From Trypanosoma brucei (lineage: Eukaryota), in assembly GCA_000002445.1 (NCBI GenBank), contig CP000071.1, forward strand, positions 1,184,001 to 1,248,000: DNA of 64,000 nucleotides, written 5' to 3'. The translations under genes and the position numbers were made by a program. Of the stretch, positions 8,394 to 61,504 are shown piece after piece. Every line of letters begins with the position of its first letter. Position 1 is the first letter of the stretch. The notes below the pieces were generated by a model. It was given only the letters and a program-made list of their open reading frames with translations, searched no databases and was not told the DNA's origin.

Positions 8394-10304
8394 TCACGCT
8401 TTCTCCTCTTGCGAAGCGCAAGTGACTGCTGACTGCCTTGTCAGTTGCTGTAGGATCCGGTCCACAGTTTTGGAGGCTTTTCTGAGTCCGGCCTCAATAT
8501 ACGTCGGGGTGCGCTGAAGTTCCACCAAACTTAGCGAGTCCCGTAGCAGCGTGCCCGCGCCATATGTGCTGCGTAGTTTATTGGCAAGATAAGACAACTC
8601 GTTATCCTCTAACAGTACCATAAGGTACGGCACGGCCTCGGCGAATAAGTTAAAATCAGGTATAAGCTTCCTTCCCAGGCCCTCGCCCACTACAACGGTT
8701 AGCACAAGCGATGCAAAGTTGCCGTCGATTGGCGTTTTGTTCTCGCGCAACGTGTTCATAATTTTGCACAGGGTAGAGCCGATACGCACATGGCGAAGCG
8801 TAAAACCATCTGATGCACCAGGAGCCACTGTATTGAAGATATTTGTCATATCCATGCGGAATTTTTCCCGTTTCGCTTCCGGGTAGGGGGGTCGCACGTC
8901 TGGTGGAAGTCTGTCGATCATTAAATCCGCACCGAGACTACCGTCGCCGCAAGCGACCGCAGCGAATAATGAAATGAAGTTGTTACGTTCCTCCGGTGAT
9001 AACGACGTGGTGAGCCCAGCGTCGAGGATGATGAGTTCATACTTCAGCTTCGGCTTCCCGTCGGGATACCTCTCCACTGTTGTGGGTGAAAAAAACGTAG
9101 TTGGTGGGACATTTAGTGGGGCCCCCGGGTTCGCCCGAATTAAAATGTTACCGGGGTGAAGGTCAGAGTGCACAAAATTATCTTCAAACAACATTTTCAA
9201 GAACATGTGACAACCCCGCTGCGCGGCGTCGCGGAACTCATCGCAGGGCTGGATTTCTTGTAGTGGTCGACCCTCTTCGAATGTCTCGACCAAAACATCC
9301 GGTGTGCAGAACGACGGAAGCGGTTTGGGAAAAATAACGCCCGGAAAGTCACGGAAATTAAATGCAAACTGCTTCAAGTTATCGCATTCTAGGTCGAGAC
9401 TAAGTTGGGAGCAAAGAAGAGACGAGAACTCACCCAGGGCCCGCCGCAAGTCCAAATACACCGTATCTCGGAACAAAGTCGTAACAACGTTGACGAAACA
9501 CTTCATCACGACAAGATCAGCACATATGATCTCGCGTGTAAGTGGGTGTAGAATCTTTATCGCCACCGTCGTCCCCGTGGGAACACCGTCAACATCTTCC
9601 CTAAGCACAGCCCGATGTACCTGCGCGATACTCCCACTGTTTACAGGTACTTTTTCGATCTCACGCAAGTAGTAAAGAACGTTCTGTCGCGTCCCGGTAT
9701 CCCCTTTCCTTCCTTCATCATTAGAACCTTGGGGCGACTCACGAAATGTGTTGCGCAACGTCTTCTCTGTATGCGACCATGAGTGCGGTTCGGTGTTATC
9801 GTACAACTTCTCTAACGCACTACACATGACCGGTGAGAAGATATCAGGCCGAGTAGCAATCCACTGACCCAGTTTTATATAACTTGGCCCCATAGCTAGG
9901 AGCATATCGCGAACTTTTCCGAAGAAAACAGGTTCGCTGCAAAAATGCAGTCCATATGTGAGAAATGTAAACCATATCACGGGCACCATGTGCACTACAA
10001 GCAGAATTGTCCGAAGTACAACTAAGCCACAGAACAAGATTTCGCGCAGCACATGCGGATGGTACTGGAACACAGCTACCTGCTGCTGATAGCTACCTGA
10101 TCCTGCGATAAACTGCCGCGTGCGACGGGGCGGGAGGCACGTTTGTTGTTGAAGGAGTCGCCGTCGCTCAGGAACCCATACGCCCCGATAATACAAGAGA
10201 AGCGCCCCACCGCACGCCGTTAAGGCCGTAACTCCACCAATACAGAAGAGATGTAATACACTGGGGTATGTGGGCTGAGGGCAAACACGAATTCTTCCCA
10301 TCAT
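8394..10304 (-). CDS. ABC1 / ADCK / UbiB-family atypical protein kinase (aarF-domain-containing kinase, Coq8-like).
   Basis: Motifs present are GQWIATRPDIFSP, SGSIAQVHRAVL, VAIKILHP, FVHSDLHPGNILI and IILDAGL. The track ORF begins at TTG (10331-10329). The first ATG is at 10304-10302, giving a protein starting MMGRIRV. Confidence 0.8.
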   Translation of the reverse strand: MMGRIRVCPQPTYPSVLHLFCIGGVTALTACGGALLLYYRGVWVPERRRLLQQQTCLPPRRTRQFIAGSGSYQQQVAVFQYHPHVLREILFCGLVVLRTILLVVHMVPVIWFTFLTYGLHFCSEPVFFGKVRDMLLAMGPSYIKLGQWIATRPDIFSPVMCSALEKLYDNTEPHSWSHTEKTLRNTFRESPQGSNDEGRKGDTGTRQNVLYYLREIEKVPVNSGSIAQVHRAVLREDVDGVPTGTTVAIKILHPLTREIICADLVVMKCFVNVVTTLFRDTVYLDLRRALGEFSSLLCSQLSLDLECDNLKQFAFNFRDFPGVIFPKPLPSFCTPDVLVETFEEGRPLQEIQPCDEFRDAAQRGCHMFLKMLFEDNFVHSDLHPGNILIRANPGAPLNVPPTTFFSPTTVERYPDGKPKLKYELIILDAGLTTSLSPEERNNFISLFAAVACGDGSLGADLMIDRLPPDVRPPYPEAKREKFRMDMTNIFNTVAPGASDGFTLRHVRIGSTLCKIMNTLRENKTPIDGNFASLVLTVVVGEGLGRKLIPDFNLFAEAVPYLMVLLEDNELSYLANKLRSTYGAGTLLRDSLSLVELQRTPTYIEAGLRKASKTVDRILQQLTRQSAVTCASQEEKA

Positions 10305-10932
10305 CCTTCTTCCGCTCGATCTACACTTCAACCGTGGGAGGGGGAATTTTGCTTCTCCGCGGTAGAGTCTCCTCCGCTAACCGGCCTGAGTTTGGTCGGC
10401 TGAAGTAGTGCCACGGGTCATTATCAGCCACAGTAATAATAAGCGAGCAAACAAGGTTACAGAAATAATGAGATGACAAAGGGGAACAGGAAAATCAAAG
10501 AAAAATAACCAAGTATGGGAAAATATAGGAAGCAGCAGCTCCATTCAACAAAAATATGCCAGCAGTGGGGCATTCAGCAAAAAAAAAGGTAATATCTTCT
10601 ACCGACTCTTTAACCCTCATCACATGTCGTGACGCTATACCTTGACGCGCGAGAAACACTAGGAACAAAAAAGCACCAAAACGAAACGACGGTAAGAGAA
10701 AGACAAAATGAAACCAAATAAAGGAAGGTATTCTAGCAAATAAAAAAAGAAAGCAACAACGCACCGAATTTATCACCTGCACCACGGAGAAAACAAACTT
10801 AAAAAAATTAATCAAAAAAGCCTCAAACAGATTAAAGTGGTTTGACCTATGCAAAAAGTACTAAACAAAATCAACAATCAAAAAAGTCCCACAAAAAAAG
10901 TACACGGTAAGCCAAACAATAAACAACATAAG

Positions 10933-11160
10933 TCACAAGCAAGCTATCCCCCATTTAAAAGCACCTCCCATCCAAACCATTCCTATCGCGCCTCCCGCCA
11001 GCGCCGTACCAAGGAAGGCAAAGGCACGTCCCACGGAGGAAGCAGAAACCGCCATCGTATGCTTCTTCCTGCAGTTGATGCCACAAAGTGTAATAGAAGG
11101 AGTAAGTGGGATGACAGTGCACGTATCAGTGGGCATGAGCCGTACGGTGATGCGATGCAT
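10933..11160 (-). pseudogene. Truncated 5' fragment of the endonuclease-G-like gene, marking the left boundary of the tandem array.
   Basis: The 75-aa ORF is identical over its first 62 aa to the N-terminus of the 506-aa EndoG-like proteins at 16841..18361 and 26459..27979. It then diverges (MVWMGGAFKWGIACL versus MVVERGGWFGVDKCHP). Nucleotide identity with the other units ends near 10974. Confidence 0.6.
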
Positions 11161-12131
11161 TTTACGTATCGCTATGAGGTCCTTCCGTCCACATGACGAA
11201 TACAGCTACAAATGATCTTGCACTACAGCGGGTGGTATTAACGATAAGGTTACATCAGCTTCAGCACACTCTGCTTCTGCTTTTAACCCTAGACTTATCT
11301 AATCCCTGCCGCCCATGCAGTTGCATAATTAAATAGAAGATAATAAGGGAGAATGAAAATGAATGAAGATGGGAAAATACGGTGAAGGAACACAAAGGGT
11401 ACTATAGCAGTATAGGAGCACGCCACAAGAAGATGTGCTCGGACAAGCGGATGGATCACCAACAAGATAGGGGACCTTCGGAGGGTTTCACAGTTGGAGT
11501 CAGCATGGACTCACCTCAAAGGAAGACAAATAAGGGAAAAGAATAGAAAAAATAAAATTACGTTCCCCTGTGGCACAACGACGGCAAGCGTCGGGGTACC
11601 TGAAGCTGTACAGGCGTGCTCGCTGTAGCGACCGCACAGTCTTGTATTGTGCACTGCTTCACTGTAACATGATAGTTCATACCCCAATATATGTTGCCTA
11701 CAACCTTGTCCCCTACACACTCAGATGACACCGCACCAGTGGCATGCGGAACCGTAGTGGTAGGAGGCGGCAACCCAGGAACCTCCAGCAGCTGAAAATA
11801 TAATTTTGATGGAGAGATCTCTAGATAGAGCCGGCGTCTATGTATAAACATGCCGGCTGCACTGAGGCCGGCGTTGGGTAACCCCAGAGCCGATGCCAAC
11901 AACAACAAAAAAAAGAAATAACGACCGATCAATAACGATAAGAATGATAATGGTGGAAATACATGTACATGTACGGGAGCACATGAATAACTAGTGAATA
12001 GCGAAAATAGCGATCAGTTGAGTTACTGAGACCTTTCCACCCTGCTCTCACTCAGTTACTGCAAGCACGTGTTGCATGGGAGTGGAAGGACAGTAAGACA
12101 TTGCGCATGTTTGTGTGATAGTCTAGGAAAT

Positions 12132-12225
12132 TCACTGCTCGACCCTTTCTTTGTTGCCGTAGGCAGATGCGTAATCTTGCTCATCCTCATCCAGTGTACT
12201 CACGAATTTCGGACGAGCGGGTGCA
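12132..12225 (-). pseudogene. A 31-codon 3' remnant of the 752-aa NHL glycoprotein (FLA1BP-like) gene. The rest of the gene is deleted from the first array unit.
   Basis: Positions 12132-12225 match 19333-19427, which is the C-terminal end of the 752-aa CDS (...ARPKFVSTLDEDEQDYASAYGNKERVEQ*). Homology breaks abruptly at 12225 (agcatt versus gactac). Confidence 0.55.
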
Positions 12226-12772
12226 GCATTGCACCGTTCACATCACAGCCTGCCATAGCGATTGTTTCTTTTTTTCTCAGGCTATTTGCAAATTGTAGTT
12301 ACCATTGGAGTAATGCGCCAGATAAGGCGGTTTATAAATAATGTCGAGCTGCTCAGTGTCATGCGAACACGTACCTCAGCATTACGGAGGAAAATGGTCT
12401 AGTGTTGTTACCGTGTTTAAATAATTTCGGTCACTTAACAATCTGGTTGTTAGCGTATTGTTTCTTAGGTTTTCTCGCTAGCCGTTCGATTCAAACAATA
12501 CACAACCATTTGTATGCGTGGCCAATCTTAATTATTCAAAAACATGGGAAAACGGAACGTCTGCCAAATTAATGATGTAATGCCCTTAATTGCTATACAT
12601 GCGTGTTACATACAACAACAGCGTTCTTTCAACATGTGTGGTATAGTGCAAACGAAATACAATGCTAAACCCCCACACAGAAGTCCTGTGATGATATCTT
12701 TCTGTTTCTCCACGTAGATGGTGAGCACCATCACGTATTCTGGTGTGACATCAATGCCACTCGTAGCGGTAG

Positions 12773-14413
12773 TCACTCGAACGCCGGCAACCGTACAAAG
12801 GCGAACTTTACGTTGTACGGGCTTACCACCATCAGGAAAAGAAGTACGATAGCTACCGCACCAAGAAGTGCGGAGGAAACGATACCACCGAGACACACAC
12901 CGTCGCATCTAGATAGACGTGAGTCATCTCCGCATACGGACTCAGCTAAGGTAATGTGCTGGCAATCATCCACACACTTCACCATGCAGAGCGGCAACAG
13001 GTGACTCCACTGCTCTTGCTGCGACACTTCTTCAAGGAACATCCGGGTCCACGTCCATGGAGACGAGAACAGCCGCTTCTGCGCACGTCCCTTGCTCATG
13101 CCGGGGGGGCCCCTGTAGTTGGTAATAAGGATGGTATTCTCAAGGTTCATCATTGCAGTAAGGTTTGTCCACGTCGAAACATTTGTACCACCAGGCACGT
13201 TAATCTCACCGGGTGGAAGGAACACAGCATAGAAGTCCTCTGTACGAAAGGCTACCTCCACATCTTTTATAATCCATGAATACAGGGCGTGCATGAGCCG
13301 ATCATTTCCCATTGGGAACGAGGAAGCGCGAAAGGCGGCCACAGCTGTGGATCTCGGAGGTGACCCGGGCGTTGGCGTGGGAGTCACCGGCGGTAGTGGT
13401 GTTGGTGAATAGCATTTCTCACGGACGGCGTACACAGCTGTTTCGGTTATGGCATAATATTCACATCCATTCACCTTAACCAGTGAGACAATCGGCCCAT
13501 GCATCCACTCCATCACCTTCTTAGGGCACAACAGACCGGTTTCAGAGGAATTCAATTCAAGGGACATGATATGGCTCTCGCCGTTAGGTTCACCGTAATA
13601 ATAGAGCTCATTCTCGTCCTCAGTTAACATCAAGGCATCGACATAATCGAGACAACTCATATTGGCGATGTCCCAGCTCTTCTTGTTACCATCCGAATCG
13701 CTGAGGCTATTCAGGTCCACCGCTGCAATCCACGAGGTCTCCTTCACGACATACATGAAATTCCGCTTCTTGCTTATTTGCATCACACCAGGTTGAAAAC
13801 CTCCAACAAGTTTCGCCGTTACATTGTTGGACACACTTATCTGCGAGTACATAATCCTTGAATTTCCAGTATCCGAAATAAATAAAACCGGTGCCCCGTC
13901 TTGTTCATGATAAATAATACTACTCGGTTTATCAACTTCATTGGCCGCAAACTTCGTCACCATTCCATCAGCATCTATCCGCTTCATGCAATCATTATCC
14001 CTGTCCGCCACGTAAATATCATTGTTTACACCAACAACAGAGGTGGGATGATTAAAACGAGCAACCTCTAAAGGACCAACTTCGTCACCACGCTTTGCAA
14101 GATTTCCCGCAACGGTATATATGCCAGTTTTGTTTACGAGTCGCACGGTGGATCCACCACCTCCAACATCACATAAAAGTAAAGGAAAGCTTTTGTTCTT
14201 AAAGAACCCACCCACCGCCTTGAATAAGCGACCAGTACCGTTTATGCCATCCGCCTGCCCACTACTACAGTTGATACAACTGTTGAAGAGGTTCACAATC
14301 ACCTTGGTGCCCACGGTTTGGTCTCCTATAACGGGACTCACAAAACCCAGCAGCAGCAACAACGCTGCCACGAGTGCGGCCAATGCTTCCCGTGATTCAG
14401 TCCTGCCACCCAT
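12773..14413 (-). CDS. FLA1: Flagellum adhesion glycoprotein FLA1-like. 546 aa, with a signal peptide, an NHL-repeat beta-propeller ectodomain, many N-glycosylation sequons and a C-terminal TM helix. It lacks the 44-aa Pro-rich insert.
   Basis: The ATG was verified. The N-terminus MGGRTESREALAALVAALLLLLGFVSPVIG is signal-peptide-like. An NHL-type repeat is present (GIYTVAG...FNHPTSVVGVNNDIYVADRDNDCMKRID). The C-terminal TM is LLGAVAIVLLFLMVV. The 546-aa length, against the 590-aa paralogue, matches the published FLA1/FLA2 relationship. Confidence 0.75.
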   Translation of the reverse strand: MGGRTESREALAALVAALLLLLGFVSPVIGDQTVGTKVIVNLFNSCINCSSGQADGINGTGRLFKAVGGFFKNKSFPLLLCDVGGGGSTVRLVNKTGIYTVAGNLAKRGDEVGPLEVARFNHPTSVVGVNNDIYVADRDNDCMKRIDADGMVTKFAANEVDKPSSIIYHEQDGAPVLFISDTGNSRIMYSQISVSNNVTAKLVGGFQPGVMQISKKRNFMYVVKETSWIAAVDLNSLSDSDGNKKSWDIANMSCLDYVDALMLTEDENELYYYGEPNGESHIMSLELNSSETGLLCPKKVMEWMHGPIVSLVKVNGCEYYAITETAVYAVREKCYSPTPLPPVTPTPTPGSPPRSTAVAAFRASSFPMGNDRLMHALYSWIIKDVEVAFRTEDFYAVFLPPGEINVPGGTNVSTWTNLTAMMNLENTILITNYRGPPGMSKGRAQKRLFSSPWTWTRMFLEEVSQQEQWSHLLPLCMVKCVDDCQHITLAESVCGDDSRLSRCDGVCLGGIVSSALLGAVAIVLLFLMVVSPYNVKFAFVRLPAFE

Positions 14414-16445: not shown

Positions 16446-16840
16446 ATGGATGGCGCGCAACTGAAGTTGGGATGGCGGCTCGACTGATGCAACGTGACGA
16501 CCAATCTTATCCTAGTCAGAGTGACGTGGTGTAGGTATGGTGAGGCCACTGCAGTCGGAACGCTGAGAGTGTTCAGCACTAAAAACATTTCACGGGAGGA
16601 TCCCTAAACTGACACAGCAACTGTTCATATGTCCACTACACGATGAACCAGGGATACCATCGCGGAGGTGTAATTTAATCCACAGACACTGCGGGAGGTA
16701 TTGCTGGGGTTAGATCTCGAATAGTGCTACAGGCACTCAACAATTGCCGGACACAAAAGACTAATGGACACACACACCGCTTTCTTTGCCTAAAGTGCAG
16801 CCCTGGAAAGTTACAAATAAGGAATGACAGGTACCGTGAG

Positions 16841-18361
16841 TTAACCGGTGTCGTTGGTCGACACAGCCATTAGTTCCCTCAGGCGCTCTCTATATTCCTG
16901 TGCTACAACCCCATCCAGAGCAACTGTTATTCCGGCTGTGTTGCCACACTTCTGCTGCTGTTCTGCAAGCAGGATGCTGTAAACACTCTGCAATTCAGGA
17001 AGAGAACCCGCCGCCCGTAGACGCGCCACGTCTCGGTACGAGCGAAACATTCCTGCGGTACGTGCTTCACACACCACGCGTCTGCAAATATTTGGCAGAG
17101 CATCCAGTTCCCGCCCCCAGAACCGCGCGTCTGACCCAGCAGCGGCCACATTCCGAAAGAACTCCAAACCCGTCAGTCGCTCGATTTCTACCACAGGCAC
17201 CTGGTAAGCTGTGAGGGGCCGCTCCACGGCAATCGGTTCGTTCGGCATTAGGAAGGCAGCAGCTTCATGTGCCCCGTCCGCTCGCTCACCTAATATAACT
17301 TTGAAGAGGTGTGTGGGGACCGCAACGTCGCGCTTGCCCACAAGCTCATAGCAGACAATCTTCCGCAAGTGCACTGCTGCCTTGTCATTTCCACAGTGGC
17401 AGTGTTCTCCAGAAGCCAACACTCCGCTACTCACAGGTTTTACTGGAGACGGACATTGCGATGGTTCCGCCCACCGCCACGTGCGCACATCACCATCCAC
17501 GAGCCGCGGGTGGAAGACAGGTCCCGTCACTACCCACAATCCCCTCTCATAATACCGCCGCAACTTCCGTGTGAGGTTTTCCAACCGCAGCCAGTCGACA
17601 GCATTCATTGTCATGTCCTGTGGTACAGTGTTCGCATTCATGTTAAAGGTCTGAGCCAACTCAACAGTAGAGCTCTTGTGAAACTGTGCGGCAGCAAGGT
17701 GACCTCGGCTGAGGCCTCGTGAGTGCTGTCCCCTGCCACCCCCAATATAGTCACCGGGCTGCACGCGGAACAACTGAGGCACCGTCATGTCCGCAAAGAA
17801 CCTCATTCCATCTCGCTGGGCTTCCGCTGCGGAAGCGTTTACTAAGTCGTTATCAGCCGTGACCACTGAATCAGCAGCAGTGGTCCTGCCGGGGATGTAC
17901 TCCAACACCCAATTAGGGATACGACGCTCATAATTCAGACTAGAAACAAAGCCTTTGTAGTAGCGCAGGTGATCGTCGGACGGAAGCCCCTTGCTTGTAA
18001 GTCTTAGCACGAAAGGAGTAGTTTCCCCACCATCGTCGTTACACCTCTCCTTGGGGTATGCGGGCTGTGGGCATTGCACGTGTAACACCTCCGGACTTGT
18101 GCGCTCAGTCATCTGTTGATACGGAACAGGCGATGGATGGCATTTGTCCACACCAAACCAACCACCACGCTCCACAACCATTCCTATCGCGCCTCCCGCC
18201 AGCGCCGTACCAAGGAAGGCAAAGGCACGTCCCACGGAGGAAGCAGAAACCGCCATCGTATGCTTCTTCCTGCAGTTGATGCCACAAAGTGTAATAGAAG
18301 GAGTAAGTGGGATGACAGTGCACGTATCAGTGGGCATGAGCCGTACGGTGATGCGATGCAT
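16841..18361 (-). CDS. EndoG: Endonuclease G-like DNA/RNA non-specific nuclease (beta-beta-alpha-Me family) with an N-terminal hydrophobic anchor/presequence. Unit copy 1.
   Basis: The active-site block LSRGHLAAAQFH corresponds to the metazoan FDRGHLAAAANH. MNANTVPQDMTMNAVDWLRLENLTRKL corresponds to the EndoG region LSNVAPQVPHLNQNAWNNLEKYSRSL. VVTGPVFHP corresponds to VCTGPLFLP. VAVPTHLFKVILGE...FLMPNEPI corresponds to IAVPTHFFKVLILE...YVMPNAPV. The N-terminal hydrophobic stretch is FAFLGTALAGGAIGMVV. Confidence 0.85.
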   Translation of the reverse strand: MHRITVRLMPTDTCTVIPLTPSITLCGINCRKKHTMAVSASSVGRAFAFLGTALAGGAIGMVVERGGWFGVDKCHPSPVPYQQMTERTSPEVLHVQCPQPAYPKERCNDDGGETTPFVLRLTSKGLPSDDHLRYYKGFVSSLNYERRIPNWVLEYIPGRTTAADSVVTADNDLVNASAAEAQRDGMRFFADMTVPQLFRVQPGDYIGGGRGQHSRGLSRGHLAAAQFHKSSTVELAQTFNMNANTVPQDMTMNAVDWLRLENLTRKLRRYYERGLWVVTGPVFHPRLVDGDVRTWRWAEPSQCPSPVKPVSSGVLASGEHCHCGNDKAAVHLRKIVCYELVGKRDVAVPTHLFKVILGERADGAHEAAAFLMPNEPIAVERPLTAYQVPVVEIERLTGLEFFRNVAAAGSDARFWGRELDALPNICRRVVCEARTAGMFRSYRDVARLRAAGSLPELQSVYSILLAEQQQKCGNTAGITVALDGVVAQEYRERLRELMAVSTNDTG

Positions 18362-19332
18362 TTTACGTATCGCTATGAGGTCCTTCCGTCCACATGACGA
18401 ATACAGCTACAAATGATCTTGCACTACAGCGGGTGGTATTAACGATAAGGTTACATCAGCTTCAGCACACTTTGCTTCTGCTTTTAACCCTAGACTTATC
18501 TAATCCCTGCCGCCCACGCAGTTGCATAATTAAATAGAAGATAATAAGGGAGAATGAAAATGAATGAAGATGGGAAAATACGGTGAAGGAACACAAAGGG
18601 CACTATAGCAGTATAGGAGCACGCCACAAGAAGATGTGCTCGGACAAGCGGATGGATCACCAACAAGATAGGGGACCTTCGGAGGGTTTCACAGTTGGAG
18701 TCAGCATGGACTCACCTCAAAGGAAGACAAATAAGGGAAAAGAATAGAAAAAATAAAATTACGTTCCCCTGTGGCACAACGACGGCAAGCGTCGGGGTAC
18801 CTGAAGCTGTACAGGCGTGCTCGCTGTAGCGACCGCACAGTCTTGTATTGTGCACTGCTTCACTGTAACATGATAGTTCATACCCCAATATATGTTGCCT
18901 ACAACCTTGTCCCCTACACACTCAGATGACACCGCACCAGTGGCATGCGGAACCGTAGTGGTAGGAGGCGGCAACCCAGGAACCTCCAGCAGCTGAAAAT
19001 ATAATTTTGATGGAGAGATCTCTAGATAGAGCCGGCGTCTATGTATAAACATGCCGGCTGCACTGAGGCCGGCGTAGGGTAACCCCAGAGCCGATGCCAA
19101 CAACAACAAAAAAAAGAAATAACGACCGATCAATAACGATAAGAATGATAATGGTGGAAATACATGTACATGTACGGGAGCACATGAATAACTAGTGAAT
19201 AGCGAAAATAGCGATCAGTTGAGTTACTGAGACCTTTCCACCCTGCTCTCACTCAGTTACTGCAAGCACGTGTTGCATGGGAGTGGAAGGACAGTAAGAC
19301 ATTGCGCATGTTTGTGTGATAGTCTAGGAAAT

Positions 19333-21585
19333 TCACTGCTCGACCCTTTCTTTGTTGCCGTAGGCAGATGCGTAATCTTGCTCATCCTCATCCAGTGTAC
19401 TCACGAATTTCGGACGAGCGGGTGCGACTACGGCGGCAAGGCGTCTGCGTTTCGATGTGAACACGACAGCTAACACGATGAGGACGGCTACGATAAGTGC
19501 ACACACTACCGCGATTATGATTAGGCACACGCGACCGCACTTTGGCGCCTTCTCTGTGGTGGGTCTGACGGTATCGTTGTTCAGGTGGTCGTTCAAGTCT
19601 TGCCAGTCAATCTCACCGACGCATTCCGACACATCGAACGTATAGTTTCCAGGAATGAATACTTCGTACAGACTCATCTCAACGTAGGGTGGCTGGTAAA
19701 AAAGCGATACCGTGCGGTTCGTTATCGTGGACTGGCATACTCCAGTTACATTGCTATCAAGTGCCGTGGCAATGGTGGTTCGGCTATGGTCACCAACCTC
19801 TTCCCTACGTGCCATGCTTCTCCCGGTGCTACGTTCTTCACATTTCTTTATTTGATTCATCACCTCGTCGTGTATGTACCAGCGTACTTCCTGTTCCTCA
19901 TCCGGAGTCAGTGATGAGAAGTTGAACGGGGGATTGGAGAAGGTTACATCGACGTGAGTGTCCGAGCTCCGCAAGTATTTGATGAATGAGTGGGCAGTCT
20001 CAGTGAGGTTCGCATCTGACAGCAAGTCGTGGGTCACGGTGTTGTTGAACGAGGCTGGCATCAGTAGCTTCACTGTTGTGATATTTTCAGCGTCACTGCT
20101 CTCAGCCTTAAGGGGCATGTCCGCGTAGATGAGCGTGAAATTGAGTACCTCACCCGCCTCCTTTGCGAGCTTCCGACGGAGAGCATCAAGACTCAGGCGA
20201 TTGCAATATGGGACCATTGTGCTGTCCATGTACACCTGTTCGTCAGTAAGGTTGTAGTACTCATCCGCAGCCTCCTTTGTGTGTTCATAGTTACTCTCGT
20301 GCAAGGCCTGTTCGGTTTTCTCGTCATCAAAGTCCGGCTGTTGCACACCGGCGGTGAAATTCGTTAGCCATGTTGTGGAGTCCACATGTACGGAAGAAGA
20401 GGCAACAATACTTTCGGTGGTGCCGAGCGCAGTGTTGATGTCCTCAGTGAGGTTCCCCACAATCCACTCCATGATGTCTTTATCAGGGTATCCAACTGGT
20501 AACGGGCGCCCGGGGAAGAGACCCTGCACGTACACTGGTGGAAGTGTCACAGAACGCAGGACACTTTTCTTTTCCGATGTAACATACATTTCGTACTCCG
20601 TCACCACGAGCAATCGGGTTATCTCACAAAGAAGCGTGTCATCTCCCTCAGTATTGGGAAGACACGAGTTCGTGCTTCCTCCGGCGAATCGTTTCGTCGT
20701 AAGTTTATTACCGTCGGTCGAAACGCGGTGTAACTCATTTTGTGTTGCCGCGAGTAGATCACCAGACCGTGTGCTGGTAATGTCCACATATTCACCATCC
20801 ACCTCTGCGATCTTGTGGCCCTGCAGGTCGAACCAGCAGATGGTGCCCTGCTTCGCGGGGCCGCGAGCAACAACAAAGATGCCCTGCTGCGTGGCGGCAA
20901 TGCCGATGGGACCATAGATACTGCAGTTTGCACTCAGAGCCACGTGGCTGTGACATGCGATTGGGTCACCGTCGCTTCCCACTTCACACGTCCATACAGT
21001 ATTTGTGTTTTGCTCTGTCAGATACAGGTGGTTCCCGTACAAAGCTACGCCTGTCAGCGAGCCATTGCGGACTACGTCATGAGAGAAGACACCGCTGTCC
21101 TTGAAATACTTCACCTCACCCATACTCTCAACAAAGTAAACAAATGTGGAGCCACCAACTGTCCACTGCACGCAGGCGCGCGGTTTGTCAACTTTGACAC
21201 TACGCGACCCGCTTTTCTGATCCTCGTCTGTCTCCCATGCCGTGATTGTAGTGGTCTCACGGTTCTTGCGCGAGAAGGCACGGAAGCGGTCAACTGTCCC
21301 CAAAAGGATCTCGTCACTATTCCTGCCTCTGCACATAGCGTGGGGTGACGATAATTCCGACATGCCAGGGAACCCGTCCTTATCACCAATATGACCGTAC
21401 TTGCCAGCGACGGTGGTCACATGGCGCTTCAGTTCAATGGGAGCGGCTCCACTTCTCACTACAATCGTTGCGACGGTGGCCACGAGCAAAAGCATCTGGG
21501 ATACGTAACCTAAGTGCACGGTTCCTACTACTTCCCTCACATTCATTGTTTCCACCTCACAGTTGGTTTGTTTCCACAACGGCAT
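19333..21585 (-). CDS. FLA1BP: FLA1-binding-protein-like NHL-repeat type-I membrane glycoprotein. It is about 750 aa from the first ATG; the track ORF is 752 aa from a TTG. Unit copy 1.
   Basis: An N-terminal hydrophobic signal or anchor is present (LLLVATVATIVV). NHL-like repeats are present (TVAGKYGHIGDKDGFPGMSELSSPHAM...). There are more than 15 NxS/T sequons and a C-terminal TM CLIIIAVVCALIVAVLIVLAVVF followed by a basic cytoplasmic tail. Length and position, adjacent to FLA2 and EndoG, match FLA1BP as I recall it. Confidence 0.7.
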   Translation of the reverse strand: MPLWKQTNCEVETMNVREVVGTVHLGYVSQMLLLVATVATIVVRSGAAPIELKRHVTTVAGKYGHIGDKDGFPGMSELSSPHAMCRGRNSDEILLGTVDRFRAFSRKNRETTTITAWETDEDQKSGSRSVKVDKPRACVQWTVGGSTFVYFVESMGEVKYFKDSGVFSHDVVRNGSLTGVALYGNHLYLTEQNTNTVWTCEVGSDGDPIACHSHVALSANCSIYGPIGIAATQQGIFVVARGPAKQGTICWFDLQGHKIAEVDGEYVDITSTRSGDLLAATQNELHRVSTDGNKLTTKRFAGGSTNSCLPNTEGDDTLLCEITRLLVVTEYEMYVTSEKKSVLRSVTLPPVYVQGLFPGRPLPVGYPDKDIMEWIVGNLTEDINTALGTTESIVASSSVHVDSTTWLTNFTAGVQQPDFDDEKTEQALHESNYEHTKEAADEYYNLTDEQVYMDSTMVPYCNRLSLDALRRKLAKEAGEVLNFTLIYADMPLKAESSDAENITTVKLLMPASFNNTVTHDLLSDANLTETAHSFIKYLRSSDTHVDVTFSNPPFNFSSLTPDEEQEVRWYIHDEVMNQIKKCEERSTGRSMARREEVGDHSRTTIATALDSNVTGVCQSTITNRTVSLFYQPPYVEMSLYEVFIPGNYTFDVSECVGEIDWQDLNDHLNNDTVRPTTEKAPKCGRVCLIIIAVVCALIVAVLIVLAVVFTSKRRRLAAVVAPARPKFVSTLDEDEQDYASAYGNKERVEQ

Positions 21586-22257: not shown

Positions 22258-24030
22258 CTACTCCAGCGCCGGCAGTCGCACAAAAGTAGATCTTGCATTC
22301 GGTGGACTTGCTATGAGCAACCACAGCAGCATGATGGCAAGAAGGCCCAAGAGCACTGAGGAGGCGATTCCTGCAGCACGCAGGTCCTCATGCACCTGGA
22401 ACTGAAGCTCGTCTACACACAGAGATTCATTGAAGGAAATGTACTGACAATCATCCACACACTTCACCATGCAGAATGGTGATAGGTGATCCCACTCCTC
22501 TTGTCGTACCAATTCATCAAGAAACTTCCGTGTCCAGTTCCATGGAGACGAGAACAACCGCTTCTGTAGTTCTTGCTTGCTCCTACCAGGAGGCCCTTGG
22601 TAGTTGGTAATAAGGATGTTCTTGTCGAAGTTCTCTAGAGCTGTCAAGTTTGTCCACGTCGAAACATTTGTACCACCAGGCACGTCATTGTAACCTGGGG
22701 GGAGGAAAACAGCAAAAAAGTCATCTGTGCCGAAAGCGATCTCAACATCCCTCATAATCCACGAATACAGAGCATGCATAAGTTTTACATCATCAATTGG
22801 GAACGAAGAAGCGCGAAAGGCGGCAACAGCTGTGGGTCTCGGAGGTGAAGGGGGATCCGGATTGGGAGTAATCGGCGGCGGCGGCGGCGGCGGTGGTGGT
22901 GGTGGCGGTGGCGGTGGCGGCTGCACTGATGGTGATGGTGACGGCGATGCTGATGGGCTGGGAGAAGGTGATGGCGGCACCGAAGGCGTGGGAGGGGGCG
23001 TTGGTGGAGGCGTTGGCGTCGGTGTATAGCCTACATCACGAATGGCATACACGGCCGTTTCTGTTGTAGCATAATACTCTTTGTCATTCACCCTCAACAA
23101 TGAGACAATCCGATCATAGTCCCATTTCAACATTGACTGCGCACACCATTGGGATGCTGGAGATGGGCGTTCCACCTCTAGTGACATGATGTACCCCTCT
23201 CCATTGGGCTCACCGTAATAATATAGTTTATCCTCTGCTTGAGTCAGCATCAGAGCACTTTTGTAGTGCAGACACGTCACATCACCTATATCCTTACTTT
23301 TTCCAATATCAGACTCCCCAGTTTTGCTCAAATTAACCGCTGCAATCCATGAGGTGTTTTTTACGACATACATCATGTTCTTTTCTTTGCTTATTTGCAT
23401 CACACCAGGTTGGAAGCCAGCGACTAGTGTAGTTACCACTGTGTTATTAGCATCCAGTGGCACATAAAGGATCTGCGAATTGCCTGTGTCGGAAATGAAT
23501 AGATTCTGAGTCCCGTTCAATGTGAATGGGAGAATATCCTTCGGTTTGTTAAGGTCTTGTGGTCCATATCTGGTTACATTGCCCTCAGCATCTATTCGCC
23601 TAATACAGTTGTTATCCCTGTCTGCCACGTAAATATCATCGTTGACGCTTACAACTGAGGTGGGATTGTTGAATAGTGCATCTCCCTTGGGGCCGTCTTT
23701 ATTACCACGTTGCGTCAGACTGCCTGCAATTGTATATATGCCAGTTTTGTTTACGAGTCGCACGGTGGATCCACCACCTTCGATATCACATAAAAGTAAA
23801 GGAAAACGCTTCTTTTGGAAGAAACCACCAGACGCCTTGAAAAGTTTTCCCTTTGCACTTTCGCCATCCGCCTGCCCAACAGTACAAGTAGTACAACTGT
23901 TGAAGAGGTTCACAATCACCTTGGTGCCCACGGTTTGGTCTCCTATAACGGGACTCACAAAACCCAGCAGCAGCAACAACGCTGCCACGAGTGCGGCCAA
24001 TGCTTCCCGTGATTCAGTCCTGCCACCCAT
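22258..24030 (-). CDS. FLA2: Flagellum adhesion glycoprotein FLA2-like. 590 aa. It is the FLA1 paralogue with a 44-aa Pro-rich insertion between the propeller and the membrane-proximal domain. Unit copy 2.
   Basis: The ATG was verified. It shares the signal peptide and NHL repeats with the 546-aa protein. The extra stalk reads TPTPTPPPTPPPTPSVPPSPSPSPSASPSPSPSVQPPPPPPPPPPPPPPPPITPNPDPPSPP. The C-terminal TM is LLGLLAIMLLWLLIA. Confidence 0.75.
   Translation of the reverse strand: MGGRTESREALAALVAALLLLLGFVSPVIGDQTVGTKVIVNLFNSCTTCTVGQADGESAKGKLFKASGGFFQKKRFPLLLCDIEGGGSTVRLVNKTGIYTIAGSLTQRGNKDGPKGDALFNNPTSVVSVNDDIYVADRDNNCIRRIDAEGNVTRYGPQDLNKPKDILPFTLNGTQNLFISDTGNSQILYVPLDANNTVVTTLVAGFQPGVMQISKEKNMMYVVKNTSWIAAVNLSKTGESDIGKSKDIGDVTCLHYKSALMLTQAEDKLYYYGEPNGEGYIMSLEVERPSPASQWCAQSMLKWDYDRIVSLLRVNDKEYYATTETAVYAIRDVGYTPTPTPPPTPPPTPSVPPSPSPSPSASPSPSPSVQPPPPPPPPPPPPPPPPITPNPDPPSPPRPTAVAAFRASSFPIDDVKLMHALYSWIMRDVEIAFGTDDFFAVFLPPGYNDVPGGTNVSTWTNLTALENFDKNILITNYQGPPGRSKQELQKRLFSSPWNWTRKFLDELVRQEEWDHLSPFCMVKCVDDCQYISFNESLCVDELQFQVHEDLRAAGIASSVLLGLLAIMLLWLLIASPPNARSTFVRLPALE
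22874..22918. repeat. GGN trinucleotide repeat, (GGC/GGT)15, encoding the poly-Pro run of FLA2 on the minus strand.
   Basis: The sequence reads ggcggcggcggcggcggtggtggtggtggcggtggcggtggcggc. An identical copy lies at 32492-32536. It is absent from the 546-aa paralogue. Confidence 0.85.
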
Positions 24031-26458: not shown

Positions 26459-27979
26459 TTAACCGGTGTCGTTGGTCGACACAACCATTAGTTCCCTCAG
26501 GCGCTCTCTATATTCCTGTGCTACAACCCCATCCAGAGCAACTGTTATTCCGGCTGTGTTGCCACACTTCTGCTGCTGTTCTGCAAGCAGGATGCTGTAA
26601 ACACTCTGCAATTCAGGAAGAGAACCCGCCGCCCGTAGACGCGCCACGTCTCGGTACGAGCGAAACATTCCTGCGGTACGTGCTTCACACACCACGCGTC
26701 TGCAAATATTTGGCAGAGCATCCAGTTCCCGCCCCCAGAACCGCGCGTCTGACCCAGCAGCGGCCACATTCCGAAAGAACTCCAAACCCGTCAGTCGCTC
26801 GATTTCTACCACAGGCACCTGGTAAGCTGTGAGGGGCCGCTCCACGGCAATCGGTTCGTTCGGCATTAGGAAGGCAGCAGCTTCATGTGCCCCGTCCGCT
26901 CGCTCACCTAATATAACTTTGAAGAGGTGTGTGGGGACCGCAACGTCGCGCTTGCCCACAAGCTCATAGCAGACAATCTTCCGCAAGTGCACTGCTGCCT
27001 TGTCATTTCCACAGTGGCAGTGTTCTCCAGAAGCCAACACTCCGCTACTCACAGGTTTTACTGGAGACGGACATTGCGATGGTTCCGCCCACCGCCACGT
27101 GCGCACATCACCATCCACGAGCCGCGGGTGGAAGACAGGTCCCGTCACTACCCACAATCCCCTCTCATAATACCGCCGCAACTTCCGTGTGAGGTTTTCC
27201 AACCGCAGCCAGTCGACAGCATTCATTGTCATGTCCTGTGGTACAGTGTTCGCATTCATGTTAAAGGTCTGAGCCAACTCAACAGTAGAGCTCTTGTGAA
27301 ACTGTGCGGCAGCAAGGTGACCTCGGCTGAGGCCTCGTGAGTGCTGTCCCCTGCCACCCCCAATATAGTCACCGGGCTGCACGCGGAACAACTGAGGCAC
27401 CGTCATGTCCGCAAAGAACCTCATTCCATCTCGCTGGGCTTCCGCTGCGGAAGCGTTTACTAAGTCGTTATCAGCCGTGACCACTGAATCAGCAGCAGTG
27501 GTCCTGCCGGGGATGTACTCCAACACCCAATTAGGGATACGACGCTCATAATTCAGACTAGAAACAAAGCCTTTGTAGTAGCGCAGGTGATCGTCGGACG
27601 GAAGCCCCTTGCTTGTAAGTCTTAGCACGAAAGGAGTAGTTTCCCCACCATCGTCGTTACACCTCTCCTTGGGGTATGCGGGCTGTGGGCATTGCACGTG
27701 TAACACCTCCGGACTTGTGCGCTCAGTCATCTGTTGATACGGAACAGGCGATGGATGGCATTTGTCCACACCAAACCAACCACCACGCTCCACAACCATT
27801 CCTATCGCGCCTCCCGCCAGCGCCGTACCAAGGAAGGCAAAGGCACGTCCCACGGAGGAAGCAGAAACCGCCATCGTATGCTTCTTCCTGCAGTTGATGC
27901 CACAAAGTGTAATAGAAGGAGTAAGTGGGATGACAGTGCACGTATCAGTGGGCATGAGCCGTACGGTGATGCGATGCAT
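26459..27979 (-). CDS. EndoG: Endonuclease G-like nuclease, unit copy 2.
   Basis: It differs from copy 1 by one residue (ELMVVSTNDTG versus ELMAVSTNDTG). Confidence 0.85.
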   Translation of the reverse strand: MHRITVRLMPTDTCTVIPLTPSITLCGINCRKKHTMAVSASSVGRAFAFLGTALAGGAIGMVVERGGWFGVDKCHPSPVPYQQMTERTSPEVLHVQCPQPAYPKERCNDDGGETTPFVLRLTSKGLPSDDHLRYYKGFVSSLNYERRIPNWVLEYIPGRTTAADSVVTADNDLVNASAAEAQRDGMRFFADMTVPQLFRVQPGDYIGGGRGQHSRGLSRGHLAAAQFHKSSTVELAQTFNMNANTVPQDMTMNAVDWLRLENLTRKLRRYYERGLWVVTGPVFHPRLVDGDVRTWRWAEPSQCPSPVKPVSSGVLASGEHCHCGNDKAAVHLRKIVCYELVGKRDVAVPTHLFKVILGERADGAHEAAAFLMPNEPIAVERPLTAYQVPVVEIERLTGLEFFRNVAAAGSDARFWGRELDALPNICRRVVCEARTAGMFRSYRDVARLRAAGSLPELQSVYSILLAEQQQKCGNTAGITVALDGVVAQEYRERLRELMVVSTNDTG

Positions 27980-28950
27980 TTTACGTATCGCTATGAGGTC
28001 CTTCCGTCCACATGACGAATACAGCTACAAATGATCTTGCACTACAGCGGGTGGTATTAACGATAAGGTTACATCAGCTTCAGCACACTTTGCTTCTGCT
28101 TTTAACCCTAGACTTATCTAATCCCTGCCGCCCACGCAGTTGCATAATTAAATAGAAGATAATAAGGGAGAATGAAAATGAATGAAGATGGGAAAATACG
28201 GTGAAGGAACACAAAGGGCACTATAGCAGTATAGGAGCACGCCACAAGAAGATGTGCTCGGACAAGCGGATGGATCACCAACAAGATAGGGGACCTTCGG
28301 AGGGTTTCACAGTTGGAGTCAGCATGGACTCACCTCAAAGGAAGACAAATAAGGGAAAAGAATAGAAAAAATAAAATTACGTTCCCCTGTGGCACAACGA
28401 CGGCAAGCGTCGGGGTACCTGAAGCTGTACAGGCGTGCTCGCTGTAGCGACCGCGCAGTCTTGTATTGTGCACTGCTTCACTGTAACATGATAGTTCATA
28501 CCCCAATATATGTTGCCTACAACCTTGTCCCCTACACACTCAGATGACACCGCACCAGTGGCATGCGGAACCGTAGTGGTAGGAGGCGGCAACCCAGGAA
28601 CCTCCAGCAGCTGAAAATATAATTTTGATGGAGAGATCTCTAGATAGAGCCGGCGTCTATGTATAAACATGCCGGCTGCACTGAGGCCGGCGTAGGGTAA
28701 CCCCAGAGCCGATGCCAACAACAACAAAAAAAAGAAATAACGACCGATCAATAACGATAAGAATGATAATGGTGGAAATACATGTACATGTACGGGAGCA
28801 CATGAATAACTAGTGAATAGCGAAAATAGCGATCAGTTGAGTTACTGAGACCTTTCCACCCTGCTCTCACTCAGTTACTGCAAGCACGTGTTGCATGGGA
28901 GTGGAAGGACAGTAAGACATTGCGCATGTTTGTGTGATAGTCTAGGAAAT

Positions 28951-35675: not shown

Positions 35676-35867
35676 ATGGATGGCGCGAAGCCGGTGTTGC
35701 AAGAGCTAGGCCATTGATAGGGATACACTTTCCCATCTTTATTGGGTTGACAAGACTCTATGCGGGTGATTTGCTTTGTTTGCTGGTATCTTACGTTAAC
35801 ATGCTGTAGATTGGCCTGCTAGCAGGCACAAAATGTGAGTCTTCCCTTTTGCATTTACCCTACTGCG

Positions 35868-61469: not shown

Positions 61470-61473
61470 TCTT

Positions 61474-61504
<31 letters not shown>

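What the first reader, a model, noticed from the sequence alone, without database searches (positions are those of the whole stretch)
10933..12772. Array left boundary lies inside an EndoG coding sequence, and unit 1 has lost the FLA1BP gene except for a 31-codon remnant
Homology to the repeat starts at about 10974, in the middle of the EndoG N-terminal coding region. This yields a 75-aa ORF with a novel C-terminus, so it is a gene fragment. Further right, 12132-12225 preserves only the last 31 codons plus stop of the 752-aa glycoprotein gene before homology ends abruptly at 12225. From there, unique sequence runs up to the distinct 3' end and 3'UTR of the 546-aa FLA1-like gene. Unit 1 is therefore EndoG-fragment / FLA1BP-remnant / FLA1, and not a simple partial copy. 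The footprints argue that the FLA1-type unit arose by deletion or replacement within a pre-existing FLA2-type unit, or the reverse, rather than by independent insertion.
Basis: seen in the sequence. Interest (0 to 1): 0.6.

Follow-up and report, generated by a model that had tools for sequence, protein, structure and literature searches.

The report
Deletion scars at FLA array end
At the downstream end of the Trypanosoma brucei FLA1/FLA2 gene array, the last repeat unit carries two real leftover gene stumps (of endonuclease G and of FLA1BP); this is ordinary decay at the edge of a repeat array, but it probably places FLA1 on the same regulatory 3' tail as its binding partner FLA1BP.

Summary
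The window is T. brucei TREU927 chromosome 8 (window position + 1,184,000), with all genes on the minus strand. Window 10971-12224 is 99.5-99.6% identical to 18171-19425 and 27789-29043 and breaks sharply at both ends.

Outgroups polarise the history. T. vivax has a single a-b-FLA-FLA1BP-EndoG-ABC1 unit with a full EndoG next to ABC1, and T. cruzi and T. rangeli keep FLA-FLA1BP-EndoG. Both stumps are therefore derived losses.

Both junctions are nucleotide-identical in T. b. gambiense. The island copies group by strain, so the high identity comes from gene conversion, not from a recent event.

The two scars look like independent events. T. congolense has a truncated EndoG next to ABC1 but an intact FLA1BP, and the gapped gambiense assembly puts the scars in different units.

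Functionally, published RNA-seq maps the FLA1 transcript through the island to window 10546 with internal processing. The island carries the FLA1BP 3'UTR and the array's only RBP10 motifs. FLA1 and FLA1BP mRNAs fall together when RBP10 is induced. Overall this is a new example of a known kind, of modest interest.

The parts
8394..10304 (-). ABC1-family kinase gene (Tb927.8.4000, 636 aa). It is the single-copy gene flanking the downstream end of the array.
   Evidence: It is 100% identical to XP_847231.1 and carries Pfam ABC1. It lies directly after EndoG in T. vivax.
10305..10970 (-). Unique spacer 'S' between the EndoG stump and ABC1. It holds the ABC1 polypyrimidine tracts (10761-10683 and 10508-10467) and the mapped 3' end of the long FLA1 transcript at 10546.
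   Evidence: It shows no homology to the inner EndoG 3' flank 16458-16840, to the EndoG CDS, or to the T. congolense and T. vivax spacers. The polypyrimidine scan is. The 3' end 1194546 comes from Kolev 2010 Table S3.
10933..11160 (-). EndoG stump E': a 75-aa ORF. Homology to full EndoG covers 10971-11160 (codons 1-63 plus 2 nt); the last 13 codons are read from the spacer.
   Evidence: There is no Endonuclease_NS domain, which lies at aa 123-407 of the full protein. The gambiense tail differs (68 aa).
11161..12131 (-). Copy of the FLA1BP-to-EndoG intergenic region. Window 11457-12131 is the annotated 675/676-nt FLA1BP 3'UTR. The UAUUUUUU (RBP10) motif lies at 11547-11554. The EndoG-type polypyrimidine tracts lie at 11558-11517 and 11390-11331, with the next AG at 11307.
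Evidence: It is 99.5% identical to the inner copies. The FLA1BP 3'UTR sequence and length come from the PMC5568443 supplement and Kolev Table S5 (PAS 1202658, which is window 18658).
12132..12224 (-). FLA1BP remnant: the stop codon plus the last 30 codons (cytoplasmic tail, aa 721-750). It has no start codon, signal peptide, ectodomain or transmembrane segment.
   Evidence: The junction ...GCAATGCT|GCACCCGCTCG is identical in gambiense.
12225..12772 (-). FLA1-specific proximal 3'UTR. Window 12225 to about 12710 has no homologue in the window. Window 12710-12772 is collinear with the first ~60 nt of the FLA2 3'UTR.
12773..14413 (-). FLA1 (Tb927.8.4010, 546 aa). It diverges from FLA2 from codon 47 onward; codons 1-46 and everything upstream are homogenised with the other units.
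   Evidence: It is an exact match to XP_847232.1.
16458..16840 (-). Inner-unit EndoG 3' flank 'R' (383 nt), ending at the true repeat-unit junction 12 nt upstream of the ATG of the next 232-aa gene. It is absent from the last unit.
18171..19425 (-). Inner-unit counterpart of the island (unit 2). A second counterpart lies at 27789-29043 (unit 3).

Best explanation
The region is the downstream (ABC1-proximal) end of the three-unit, 9,618-bp tandem array on T. brucei chromosome 8. Each unit reads 232-aa gene, CCCH zinc-finger gene, FLA, FLA1BP, EndoG.

The ancestral locus was a single unit followed directly by the ABC1 kinase gene. After amplification, the last unit acquired two separate lesions:
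1. EndoG codons 64-506 and its 383-nt 3' flank were lost. This leaves a 63-codon stump abutting 666 nt of unrelated spacer.
2. About 2.8 kb covering most of the FLA 3'UTR/intergenic region and FLA1BP codons 1-720 was lost. About 485 nt of FLA1-specific sequence now sits in its place.

The 1,254 bp between the two scars has been kept about 99.5% identical to the inner units by gene conversion. Neither stump can encode a working protein.

The retained island is nevertheless used as RNA-processing sequence. It carries the FLA1BP poly(A) region and the EndoG splice-acceptor tracts. FLA1 mRNA therefore runs through the FLA1BP remnant into the FLA1BP 3'UTR, which holds the only UAUUUUUU/RBP10 elements of the array. 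It ends either there (about 11457) or at 10546, just before the ABC1 splice signals. The EndoG stump is released as a UTR-internal non-coding transcript.

Shown: the homology, both junctions, the polarity, the concerted evolution and the published transcript ends.

Inferred: that the internal FLA1 poly(A) site equals the FLA1BP site, that RBP10 acts on FLA1 through this shared tail, and the order and mechanism of the two deletions.
For: Structure and junctions:
-.

Identity of the locus:
- Exact matches to TREU927 FLA1, EndoG and ABC1.
- The coordinate offset is confirmed by Kolev Table S3.

Polarity:
- T. vivax has a single a-b-FLA-FLA1BP-EndoG(full)-ABC1 unit in a gap-free contig.
- T. cruzi, T. 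rangeli and T. conorhini keep a-b-(carrier)-FLA-FLA1BP-EndoG.
- The conserved cluster is also noted in PMC10675206.

Age and conversion:
- Both junctions are identical in gambiense.
- 13 or more strain-specific variants are shared by all island copies within each strain.
- The unit-3 FLA gene carries 35 consecutive FLA1-type variants.

Loss of function:
- The nuclease domain lies at aa 123-407.
- The ORF tails differ between subspecies.

RNA:
- Kolev 2010 Table S3 maps FLA1 from 1198570 to 1194546 (window 14570 to 10546) and flags 'alt 3UTR', meaning a full-length transcript, a shorter ORF-containing transcript and a UTR-internal transcript with SL and poly(A) ends.
- The FLA1BP PAS lies 675 nt after its stop codon.
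- FLA1BP mRNA is RBP10-bound and has one UA(U)6 motif.
- UAUUUUUU occurs only in the three island copies within 8000-36000.
- RBP10 induction roughly halves both FLA1 (86/79 to 42/34 RPM) and FLA1BP (69/91 to 31/31 RPM), while FLA2 rises.
Against: - Reads inside the island map to three places, so Kolev's continuous FLA1 transcript model and the internal processing site cannot be assigned uniquely to the last unit.
- FLA1 was not found in the stored (truncated) part of the RBP10-bound list.
- A weak polypyrimidine tract at 12557-12538 could give a short FLA1 3'UTR that never reaches the island.
- The gambiense assembly puts FLA1 plus the FLA1BP remnant in the first unit, followed by EndoG reading on to at least codon 105, and puts FLA2 plus a full FLA1BP next to the EndoG stump. 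The physical linkage of the two scars is therefore either strain-specific or wrong in one of the assemblies.
- The spacer S and the 485-nt FLA1-specific stretch have no identifiable source, so 'deletion' may really be 'replacement'.
Confidence: 0.78

Rival explanations
1. Assembly phasing artefact. The two scars are real, but in the true TREU927 chromosome they lie in different units, as in the gambiense assembly: FLA1 plus the FLA1BP remnant followed by a full EndoG, and FLA2 plus a full FLA1BP followed by the EndoG stump. On this reading the composite 'unit 1' is a mis-join across near-identical repeats.
For: - The gambiense DAL972 order is M-a'-b-FLA1-remnant-EndoG(at least 105 codons)-[100 N]-FLA1BP-EndoG-a-b-FLA2-FLA1BP-stump-ABC1.
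- The T. congolense contig also has FLA2-like, full FLA1BP, stump, ABC1.
- The island (1,254 nt) and the 1.7-kb stretch that is identical between units 1 and 3 both exceed Sanger read length.
Against: - TREU927 is a finished reference. The gambiense array is gapped and one unit short.
- T. b. equiperdum independently shows M-a'-b-FLA2-FLA1BP-EndoG-a-b-FLA2, as in TREU927.
- The TREU927 unit-1 island has five private variants spread from near the FLA1BP junction (column 349) to the EndoG junction (column 1251), spaced less than 500 nt apart. This allows unambiguous read-chaining.
- The same mis-join logic explains the gambiense order equally well.
Confidence: 0.12
2. One-step templated insertion. 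On this reading the EndoG stump was never a full copy. A copy of the segment running from 12 nt upstream of the 232-aa gene to EndoG codon 64 was inserted at a break 383 nt downstream of EndoG. This created the R|a junction and the stump|spacer junction in a single event, so no later deletion of EndoG is needed.
For: - Both novel junctions involve the same ancestral site, the R/S boundary.
- No trace of R or of the EndoG 3' part remains beside ABC1.
- There is a short TGGA/TGG similarity at the junction.
Against: - It requires an ancestral EndoG-ABC1 spacer of about 1,050 nt, whereas T. vivax has 421 nt.
- The T. congolense stump ends at a different codon (about 158, against 63), which fits independent or progressive decay better.
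- A deletion that spans the R/S boundary explains the data equally well.
Confidence: 0.2
3. Cassette replacement rather than in-situ deletion. On this reading, FLA1 codons 47-546 plus the 548-nt 3' region and the FLA1BP-remnant junction form a mobile 'FLA1 cassette'. Gene conversion between the identical flanks copies it from unit to unit. Its presence in the last unit of TREU927 would then say nothing about where the FLA1BP deletion first happened.
For: - The flanks on both sides are 99-100% identical between units.
- The unit-3 FLA gene is a FLA1/FLA2 mosaic with a sharp tract boundary.
- The cassette sits in a different unit in the gambiense assembly while its junction is base-identical.
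Against: - The gambiense order may be a mis-assembly.
- No second strain with a verified alternative position is available.
- Conversion moves the scar but does not replace the need for an original deletion.
Confidence: 0.3
4. The 75-aa ORF is a functional small protein: an N-terminal EndoG presequence and membrane anchor re-used on its own.
For: - The ORF is open and starts at the EndoG ATG.
- The region is transcribed.
Against: - The tail is frameshifted in TREU927 relative to gambiense (75 aa against 68 aa, with unrelated endings).
- It has no domain.
- It is not annotated in TREU927, where ABC1 and FLA1 carry consecutive accessions.
- Kolev classes such UTR-internal RNAs as putative non-coding.
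Confidence: 0.03

Closest known systems
Conserved trypanosomatid cluster of zinc-finger gene, FLA1/GP72, FLA1BP and endonuclease G
   Same: The gene set and order are the same. I confirmed this here for T. vivax, T. cruzi, T. rangeli and T. conorhini, and it is stated in PMC10675206.
   Different: In T. brucei the cluster is triplicated, and the last copy has lost FLA1BP and most of EndoG. The papers I could read name the genes (Tb927.8.4010 to 4110) but do not describe the stumps.
Truncated or degenerate terminal copies at the edges of tandem gene arrays under concerted evolution. This is general knowledge of trypanosome tandem arrays, recalled and not re-read here.
   Same: The inner copies are homogenised. 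The edge copy is broken where homology meets unique flank. Copies group by genome rather than by position.
   Different: The edge unit here also has an internal deletion. The retained island is kept identical to the inner units even though it is bounded by two scars.
UTR-internal alternative processing in T. brucei (Kolev et al. 2010; 394 genes with 'alt 3UTR')
   Same: FLA1 is on that list. It has a long transcript, a shorter ORF-containing transcript and an SL/poly(A) UTR-internal RNA.
   Different: Here the internal signals have an identifiable origin. They are the poly(A) region of a deleted gene (FLA1BP) and the splice acceptor of a truncated gene (EndoG).
RBP10-repressed procyclic-specific mRNAs with UA(U)6 in the 3'UTR (Mugo and Clayton 2017)
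   Same: FLA1BP is a listed target with one motif. That same motif-bearing sequence lies downstream of FLA1, and FLA1 mRNA responds to RBP10 in the same way as FLA1BP mRNA.
   Different: Direct RBP10 binding to FLA1 mRNA was not found in the stored data. Whether the motif is included depends on which poly(A) site FLA1 uses.

Membership tests
Tandem array with truncated terminal copy (array-edge pseudogene) | Two or more head-to-tail units with a fixed period | tested here: met
   The period is 9,618 bp, with three units between 10971 and 35687.
Tandem array with truncated terminal copy (array-edge pseudogene) | Terminal copy broken at the junction with single-copy flank, while the inner copies are intact | tested here: met
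   The EndoG stump (codons 1-63) abuts the unique spacer and ABC1. The inner EndoG copies are 506 aa.
Tandem array with truncated terminal copy (array-edge pseudogene) | Single-copy intact arrangement in an outgroup | tested here: met
   The T. vivax locus L010 reads a-b-FLA-FLA1BP-EndoG(453 aa)-ABC1.
Tandem array with truncated terminal copy (array-edge pseudogene) | Concerted evolution: copies are more alike within a genome than between orthologous positions | tested here: met
   The 21 variable columns in the island sort by strain, not by position.
Endonuclease G / DNA-RNA non-specific endonuclease (PF01223) gene | Presence of the Endonuclease_NS catalytic domain | tested here: not met
   The domain lies at aa 123-407 of the full protein. 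The 75-aa ORF covers aa 1-62 and has no Pfam hit.
FLA1BP (FLA1-binding protein) gene | Start codon, N-terminal signal/anchor, NHL-type ectodomain and C-terminal transmembrane segment | tested here: not met
   Only aa 721-750 (the cytoplasmic tail after the transmembrane segment) plus the stop codon remain.
Processed (retroposed) pseudogene | Copy of a mature mRNA: bounded by the SL site and poly(A), with no intergenic DNA | tested here: not met
   The island contains the whole FLA1BP-EndoG intergenic region, is collinear with the inner units, and has no poly(A) tract at either edge.
RBP10-regulated procyclic mRNA | UA(U)6 motif inside the mature 3'UTR | tested here: inconclusive
   The motif lies at 11547-11554, inside the published long FLA1 transcript (14570 to 10546). 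However, reads in the island are multi-mapping and the short isoform end is not mapped.
RBP10-regulated procyclic mRNA | mRNA bound by RBP10 and reduced when RBP10 is expressed | tested here: inconclusive
   Reduction is seen in published read counts (FLA1 86/79 to 42/34 RPM, with column headers). Binding data for FLA1 were not in the stored part of the table.

The most novel reading that the evidence does not exclude
Loss of the FLA1BP coding region in one unit fused FLA1 to the FLA1BP 3'UTR, which holds the only RBP10-responsive sequence in the array. The cell-body adhesin FLA1 and its flagellar partner FLA1BP then became co-regulated (on in procyclic forms, off in bloodstream forms) through one inherited RNA element. 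Separately, because their flanks are identical, the FLA1+remnant and FLA2+FLA1BP segments would behave as interchangeable cassettes that gene conversion can move between array slots. That would explain the different unit order in T. b. gambiense.
Probability: 0.4. Interest if true: 0.5.

Novelty: new member of a known kind. Interest (0 to 1): 0.3.

Why it matters
The FLA1-FLA1BP and FLA2-FLA2BP pairs hold the trypanosome flagellum to the cell body in the insect and bloodstream stages respectively. How the right pair comes to be expressed together is an open question.

The stumps themselves are ordinary array-edge debris. They do show that FLA1 lies directly upstream of the FLA1BP 3'UTR, which gives a concrete and easily testable explanation for the co-regulation of the two partners.

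They also matter in practice:
- Any 3'UTR replacement, tagging or RNAi design at FLA1 has to take account of a 3'UTR of 1.3 to 2.2 kb that is shared in part with FLA1BP and contains an EndoG fragment.
- Short-read mapping in this island is three-fold ambiguous.
- The unit order differs between reference assemblies.

Tried and rejected
As a result, the T. congolense full-length EndoG and the neighbours of its FLA1-like gene (TcIL3000_8_3780, for which no contig is held) could not be examined.
2. The T. b. equiperdum locus L008 breaks at a 100-N gap inside the second EndoG and continues with unrelated sequence, so it says nothing about the ABC1 end.
3. The T. equiperdum OVI scaffold L009 seemed to show a full EndoG next to ABC1. 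The two are separated by a 10-N gap, and the flank contig starts exactly at window 10974. I rejected it as a scaffolding join of collapsed repeats.
4. Sensitive DNA and protein searches found no EndoG-derived or R-derived sequence in the spacer 10305-10970. They also found no homology between the spacers of T. brucei, T. congolense and T. vivax; scores were no better than shuffled or reversed controls.
5. Local alignment of the FLA1-specific 3' region against the FLA2 3'UTR, the FLA1BP CDS and the whole unit found nothing above the shuffles, apart from the collinear ~60 nt next to the stop codon.
6. A FLA protein tree could not decide whether the FLA1/FLA2 split predates the brucei-congolense divergence. 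The reciprocal signal is weak and the T. congolense paralogues are homogenised.
7. The review by De Liz et al. 2023, which is cited for the statement that FLA/FLABP duplication occurs only in T. brucei and T. congolense, is not held. The Siegel 2010 supplements are not held either.
8. A functional micro-protein was considered and rejected; see the rival explanations.
Full report
**What the window is.** The 546-aa ORF at 12773-14413(-) is an exact match to T. brucei brucei TREU927 FLA1 (XP_847232.1). The 506-aa ORFs are the annotated 'endonuclease G, putative', and the ORF at 8394-10304(-) is the ABC1-family protein XP_847231.1. Kolev et al. 2010 give the FLA1 CDS as Tb927_08 1196773-1198413, so window position + 1,184,000 equals the chromosome 8 coordinate. 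All genes here are on the minus strand.

Read in the direction of transcription (right to left), the locus is as follows:
- a 415-aa gene;
- unit 3: a' 240 aa, CCCH zinc-finger 242 aa, FLA2 590 aa, FLA1BP 750 aa, EndoG 506 aa;
- unit 2: a 232 aa, CCCH zinc-finger, FLA2, FLA1BP, EndoG;
- the last unit: a, CCCH zinc-finger, FLA1, FLA1BP remnant, EndoG stump;
- the ABC1 gene.

The repeat period is 9,618 bp.

**Check of the observation.** Window 10971-12224 aligns with 18171-19425 (99.60%) and with 27789-29043 (99.52%).

The left edge is sharp. The gene strand reads ...GGTTGTGGA|TGGGAGG here, against ...GGTTGTGGA|GCGTGG in the intact genes. This corresponds to EndoG codons 1-63 plus two bases. TREU927 also has a private 1-nt deletion four bases inside the edge. 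That deletion is why the ORF at 10933-11160 reads EndoG aa 1-62 followed by 13 unrelated residues, 75 aa in all.

The right edge is equally sharp, after 12224. Window 12132-12224 is the stop codon plus the last 30 codons of FLA1BP, which encode the cytoplasmic tail beyond the transmembrane segment.

From 12225 to about 12710 there is no similarity to anything in the window, and scores are no better than for shuffled sequence. From about 12710 onward FLA1 is collinear with FLA2, ungapped, at 50-70% identity through the stop codon and at about 77% further into the CDS.

**Is it an assembly artefact?** In T. b. gambiense DAL972, a gap-free 21.9-kb stretch matches window 12224-1 continuously at 99.1%, straight across the EndoG|spacer junction. 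The junction bases are identical, but gambiense lacks the 1-nt deletion, so its ORF is 68 aa with a different tail. The FLA1BP-remnant junction (...GCAATGCT|GCACCCGCTCG) is also identical in gambiense. Both scars are therefore real and older than the brucei/gambiense split.

**Polarity.**
- T. vivax (a 1.87-Mb gap-free contig) has one unit: a, b, FLA, FLA1BP, EndoG (453 aa, full length), ABC1, then the same downstream genes as in this window.
- T. cruzi, T. rangeli and T. conorhini have a, b, a mitochondrial-carrier gene, GP72/FLA, FLA1BP, EndoG.
- The same conserved cluster is noted in PMC10675206.

So FLA-FLA1BP-EndoG(-ABC1) is ancestral, and the loss of FLA1BP and the truncation of EndoG are both derived.

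**Where the array really ends.** The right-hand limit of repeat homology is 12 nt upstream of the ATG of gene a (16457 = 26075 = 35687). In the inner units, the 383 nt after the EndoG stop codon (R, 16458-16840) joins directly to that point. This is the duplication junction.

The last unit lacks R and EndoG codons 64-506. In their place it has 666 nt (S, 10305-10970) with no detectable similarity to R, to EndoG, or to the equivalent spacers of T. congolense or T. vivax. The EndoG break is therefore not the junction produced by tandem duplication. It is one of two things:
- a later deletion that spans the R/S boundary; or
- the end of a one-step templated insertion of the segment from a to EndoG codon 64 at a break behind EndoG.

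I cannot separate these two, and I favour deletion. An unplaced 9.1-kb T. congolense contig (no Ns) reads b, FLA2-like, FLA1BP (full), EndoG aa 13-158 then a stop codon, ABC1. That is also a truncated EndoG next to ABC1, but with a different breakpoint. This fits repeated or progressive decay of the edge copy better than a single shared event.

**Concerted evolution.** I aligned eight island copies from TREU927, gambiense, T. b. equiperdum and T. equiperdum OVI. They have 21 variable columns, and the copies group by genome, not by position. All three gambiense copies share 13 or more states that differ from all three TREU927 copies. Because the junctions predate that split, the island has been homogenised since then. 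Its 99.5% identity therefore does not indicate a recent deletion.

A second conversion footprint lies in the FLA gene of unit 3. It carries 35 consecutive FLA1-type variants (33398-33509, equivalent to 14163-14274) and is otherwise identical to the FLA2 of unit 2.

**Are the two scars one history?** Probably not.
- T. congolense has the EndoG stump together with an intact FLA1BP.
- The gambiense assembly reads M-a'-b-FLA1-remnant-EndoG (reading on to at least codon 105)-[100 N]-FLA1BP-EndoG-a-b-FLA2-FLA1BP(full)-stump-ABC1.

In gambiense the two scars therefore sit in different units. That assembly is gapped and one unit short. Its order can be produced by mis-joining across the 1.25-kb island and across the 1.7-kb stretch that is identical between units 1 and 3. 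T. b. equiperdum independently agrees with TREU927 for the first two units. The five private variants of the TREU927 island are spaced closely enough for unambiguous assembly. I therefore accept the TREU927 phasing with about 85% confidence.

Whichever assembly is right, FLA1 plus the remnant and FLA2 plus FLA1BP are bounded by near-identical flanks. Gene conversion could exchange them between units.

**What the stumps do.** As coding sequence they do nothing. The nuclease domain lies at aa 123-407, and the FLA1BP remnant has no start codon.

As RNA-processing sequence, the island is probably in use:
- The annotated FLA1BP 3'UTR is 675-676 nt (PAS 1202658 = window 18658). Its counterpart in the last unit is 12131-11457.
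- It is followed by the EndoG polypyrimidine tracts (11390-11331, with the next AG at 11307).
- No strong polypyrimidine tract lies between the FLA1 stop codon and the island. There is only a weak one at 12557-12538.
- Kolev et al. 2010, Table S3, list Tb927.8.4010 with a 5' end at 1198570 and a 3' end at 1194546. These are window 14570 and 10546, and the latter is 38 nt before the ABC1 polypyrimidine tract.
- The same table flags FLA1 as 'alt 3UTR'. The authors define this as a full-length transcript, a shorter ORF-containing transcript, and a UTR-internal putative non-coding transcript with SL and poly(A) ends. This is the pattern expected if the FLA1BP poly(A) site and the EndoG splice site still work in the last unit.

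**A regulatory consequence (inferred).**
- FLA1BP mRNA is an RBP10-bound, procyclic-specific mRNA with one UA(U)6 motif in its 3'UTR.
- On the gene strand, UAUUUUUU occurs only three times between 8000 and 36000. It occurs once in each island copy, and one of these is 11547-11554, downstream of FLA1.
- In that paper's read counts, RBP10 induction in procyclics takes FLA1 from 86/79 to 42/34 RPM and FLA1BP from 69/91 to 31/31 RPM, while FLA2 rises from 21/21 to 49/48 RPM.
- FLA1 is higher in procyclic forms and FLA2 is higher in bloodstream forms in independent array data and in a published table.

The deletion of FLA1BP therefore plausibly put FLA1 under the same 3'UTR control as its binding partner.

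Caveats:
- Island reads map to three places.
- Binding of FLA1 mRNA by RBP10 was not found in the stored tables.
- The short-isoform poly(A) site is not mapped.

[quoted passage not shown] The stumps lie between two consecutively numbered TREU927 proteins, and none of the papers I could read describes them. Gambiense does annotate an 'endonuclease G (fragment)', but that is a gap-truncated copy.

Broken edge copies in homogenised tandem arrays are a familiar kind of feature. I therefore rate this as a new member of a known kind, with modest interest (0.3). The shared-3'UTR idea is what would raise its value if confirmed.

Noticed in passing
window 33398-33509 (FLA gene of unit 3, Tb927.8.4110) compared with 14163-14274 and 23780-23891: The upstream-most FLA2-type gene is a mosaic. 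It carries 35 consecutive FLA1-type nucleotide variants in codons ~47-84, while the rest of the gene is 100% identical to the FLA2 of unit 2. This is a clean gene-conversion tract between FLA1 and a FLA2 copy.
   Followed up: partly
window 35062-35285 (inside the 240-aa gene a', 34980-35702): The first copy of the 232/240-aa gene has a patch of about 225 nt that is only 46-66% identical to the other two copies. The sequence on both sides of the patch is 97-100% identical.
   Followed up: no
L007 and L011 (T. b. gambiense DAL972, FN554971.1, 985889-1021430): The gambiense reference places FLA1 in the first array unit, has only one FLA2 gene, and has a 100-N gap inside the array. Its annotated 'endonuclease G (fragment)' CBH13437 is cut off by that gap and is not the true stump. 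The true stump next to ABC1 is unannotated there.
   Followed up: partly
L005 7353-7823 (T. congolense IL3000 contig CAEQ01000640.1): A truncated EndoG (aa 13-158, followed by a stop after ~11 more codons) lies between a full FLA1BP and the ABC1 gene. The edge copy of EndoG is thus also broken in T. congolense, but at a different codon.
   Followed up: partly
window 12210-12240, gene strand: The FLA1BP-remnant junction lies inside a perfect small palindrome, GGTGCA-ATGC-TGCACC. This could be a hairpin at the break or it could be chance.
   Followed up: no
L001-L004 and L006 (T. cruzi, T. rangeli, T. conorhini): A mitochondrial-carrier gene (about 400 aa, PF00153) sits between the CCCH gene and GP72/FLA in the T. 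cruzi clade. It is absent at that position in T. brucei, T. congolense and T. vivax. In these species ABC1 is not directly behind EndoG.
   Followed up: no
window 16458-16840: The inner copies of the 232-aa gene have only 383 nt of EndoG 3' flank upstream of them, with no obvious polypyrimidine tract. Homology to the first copy starts just 12 nt before the ATG. The inner copies must therefore use different splice signals from the first copy.
   Followed up: no
window 49512-49583, 54400-54435, 61472-61526: Three self-complementary (palindromic) stretches of 36-72 nt turned up in the self-BLAST. They lie well outside the array.
   Followed up: no
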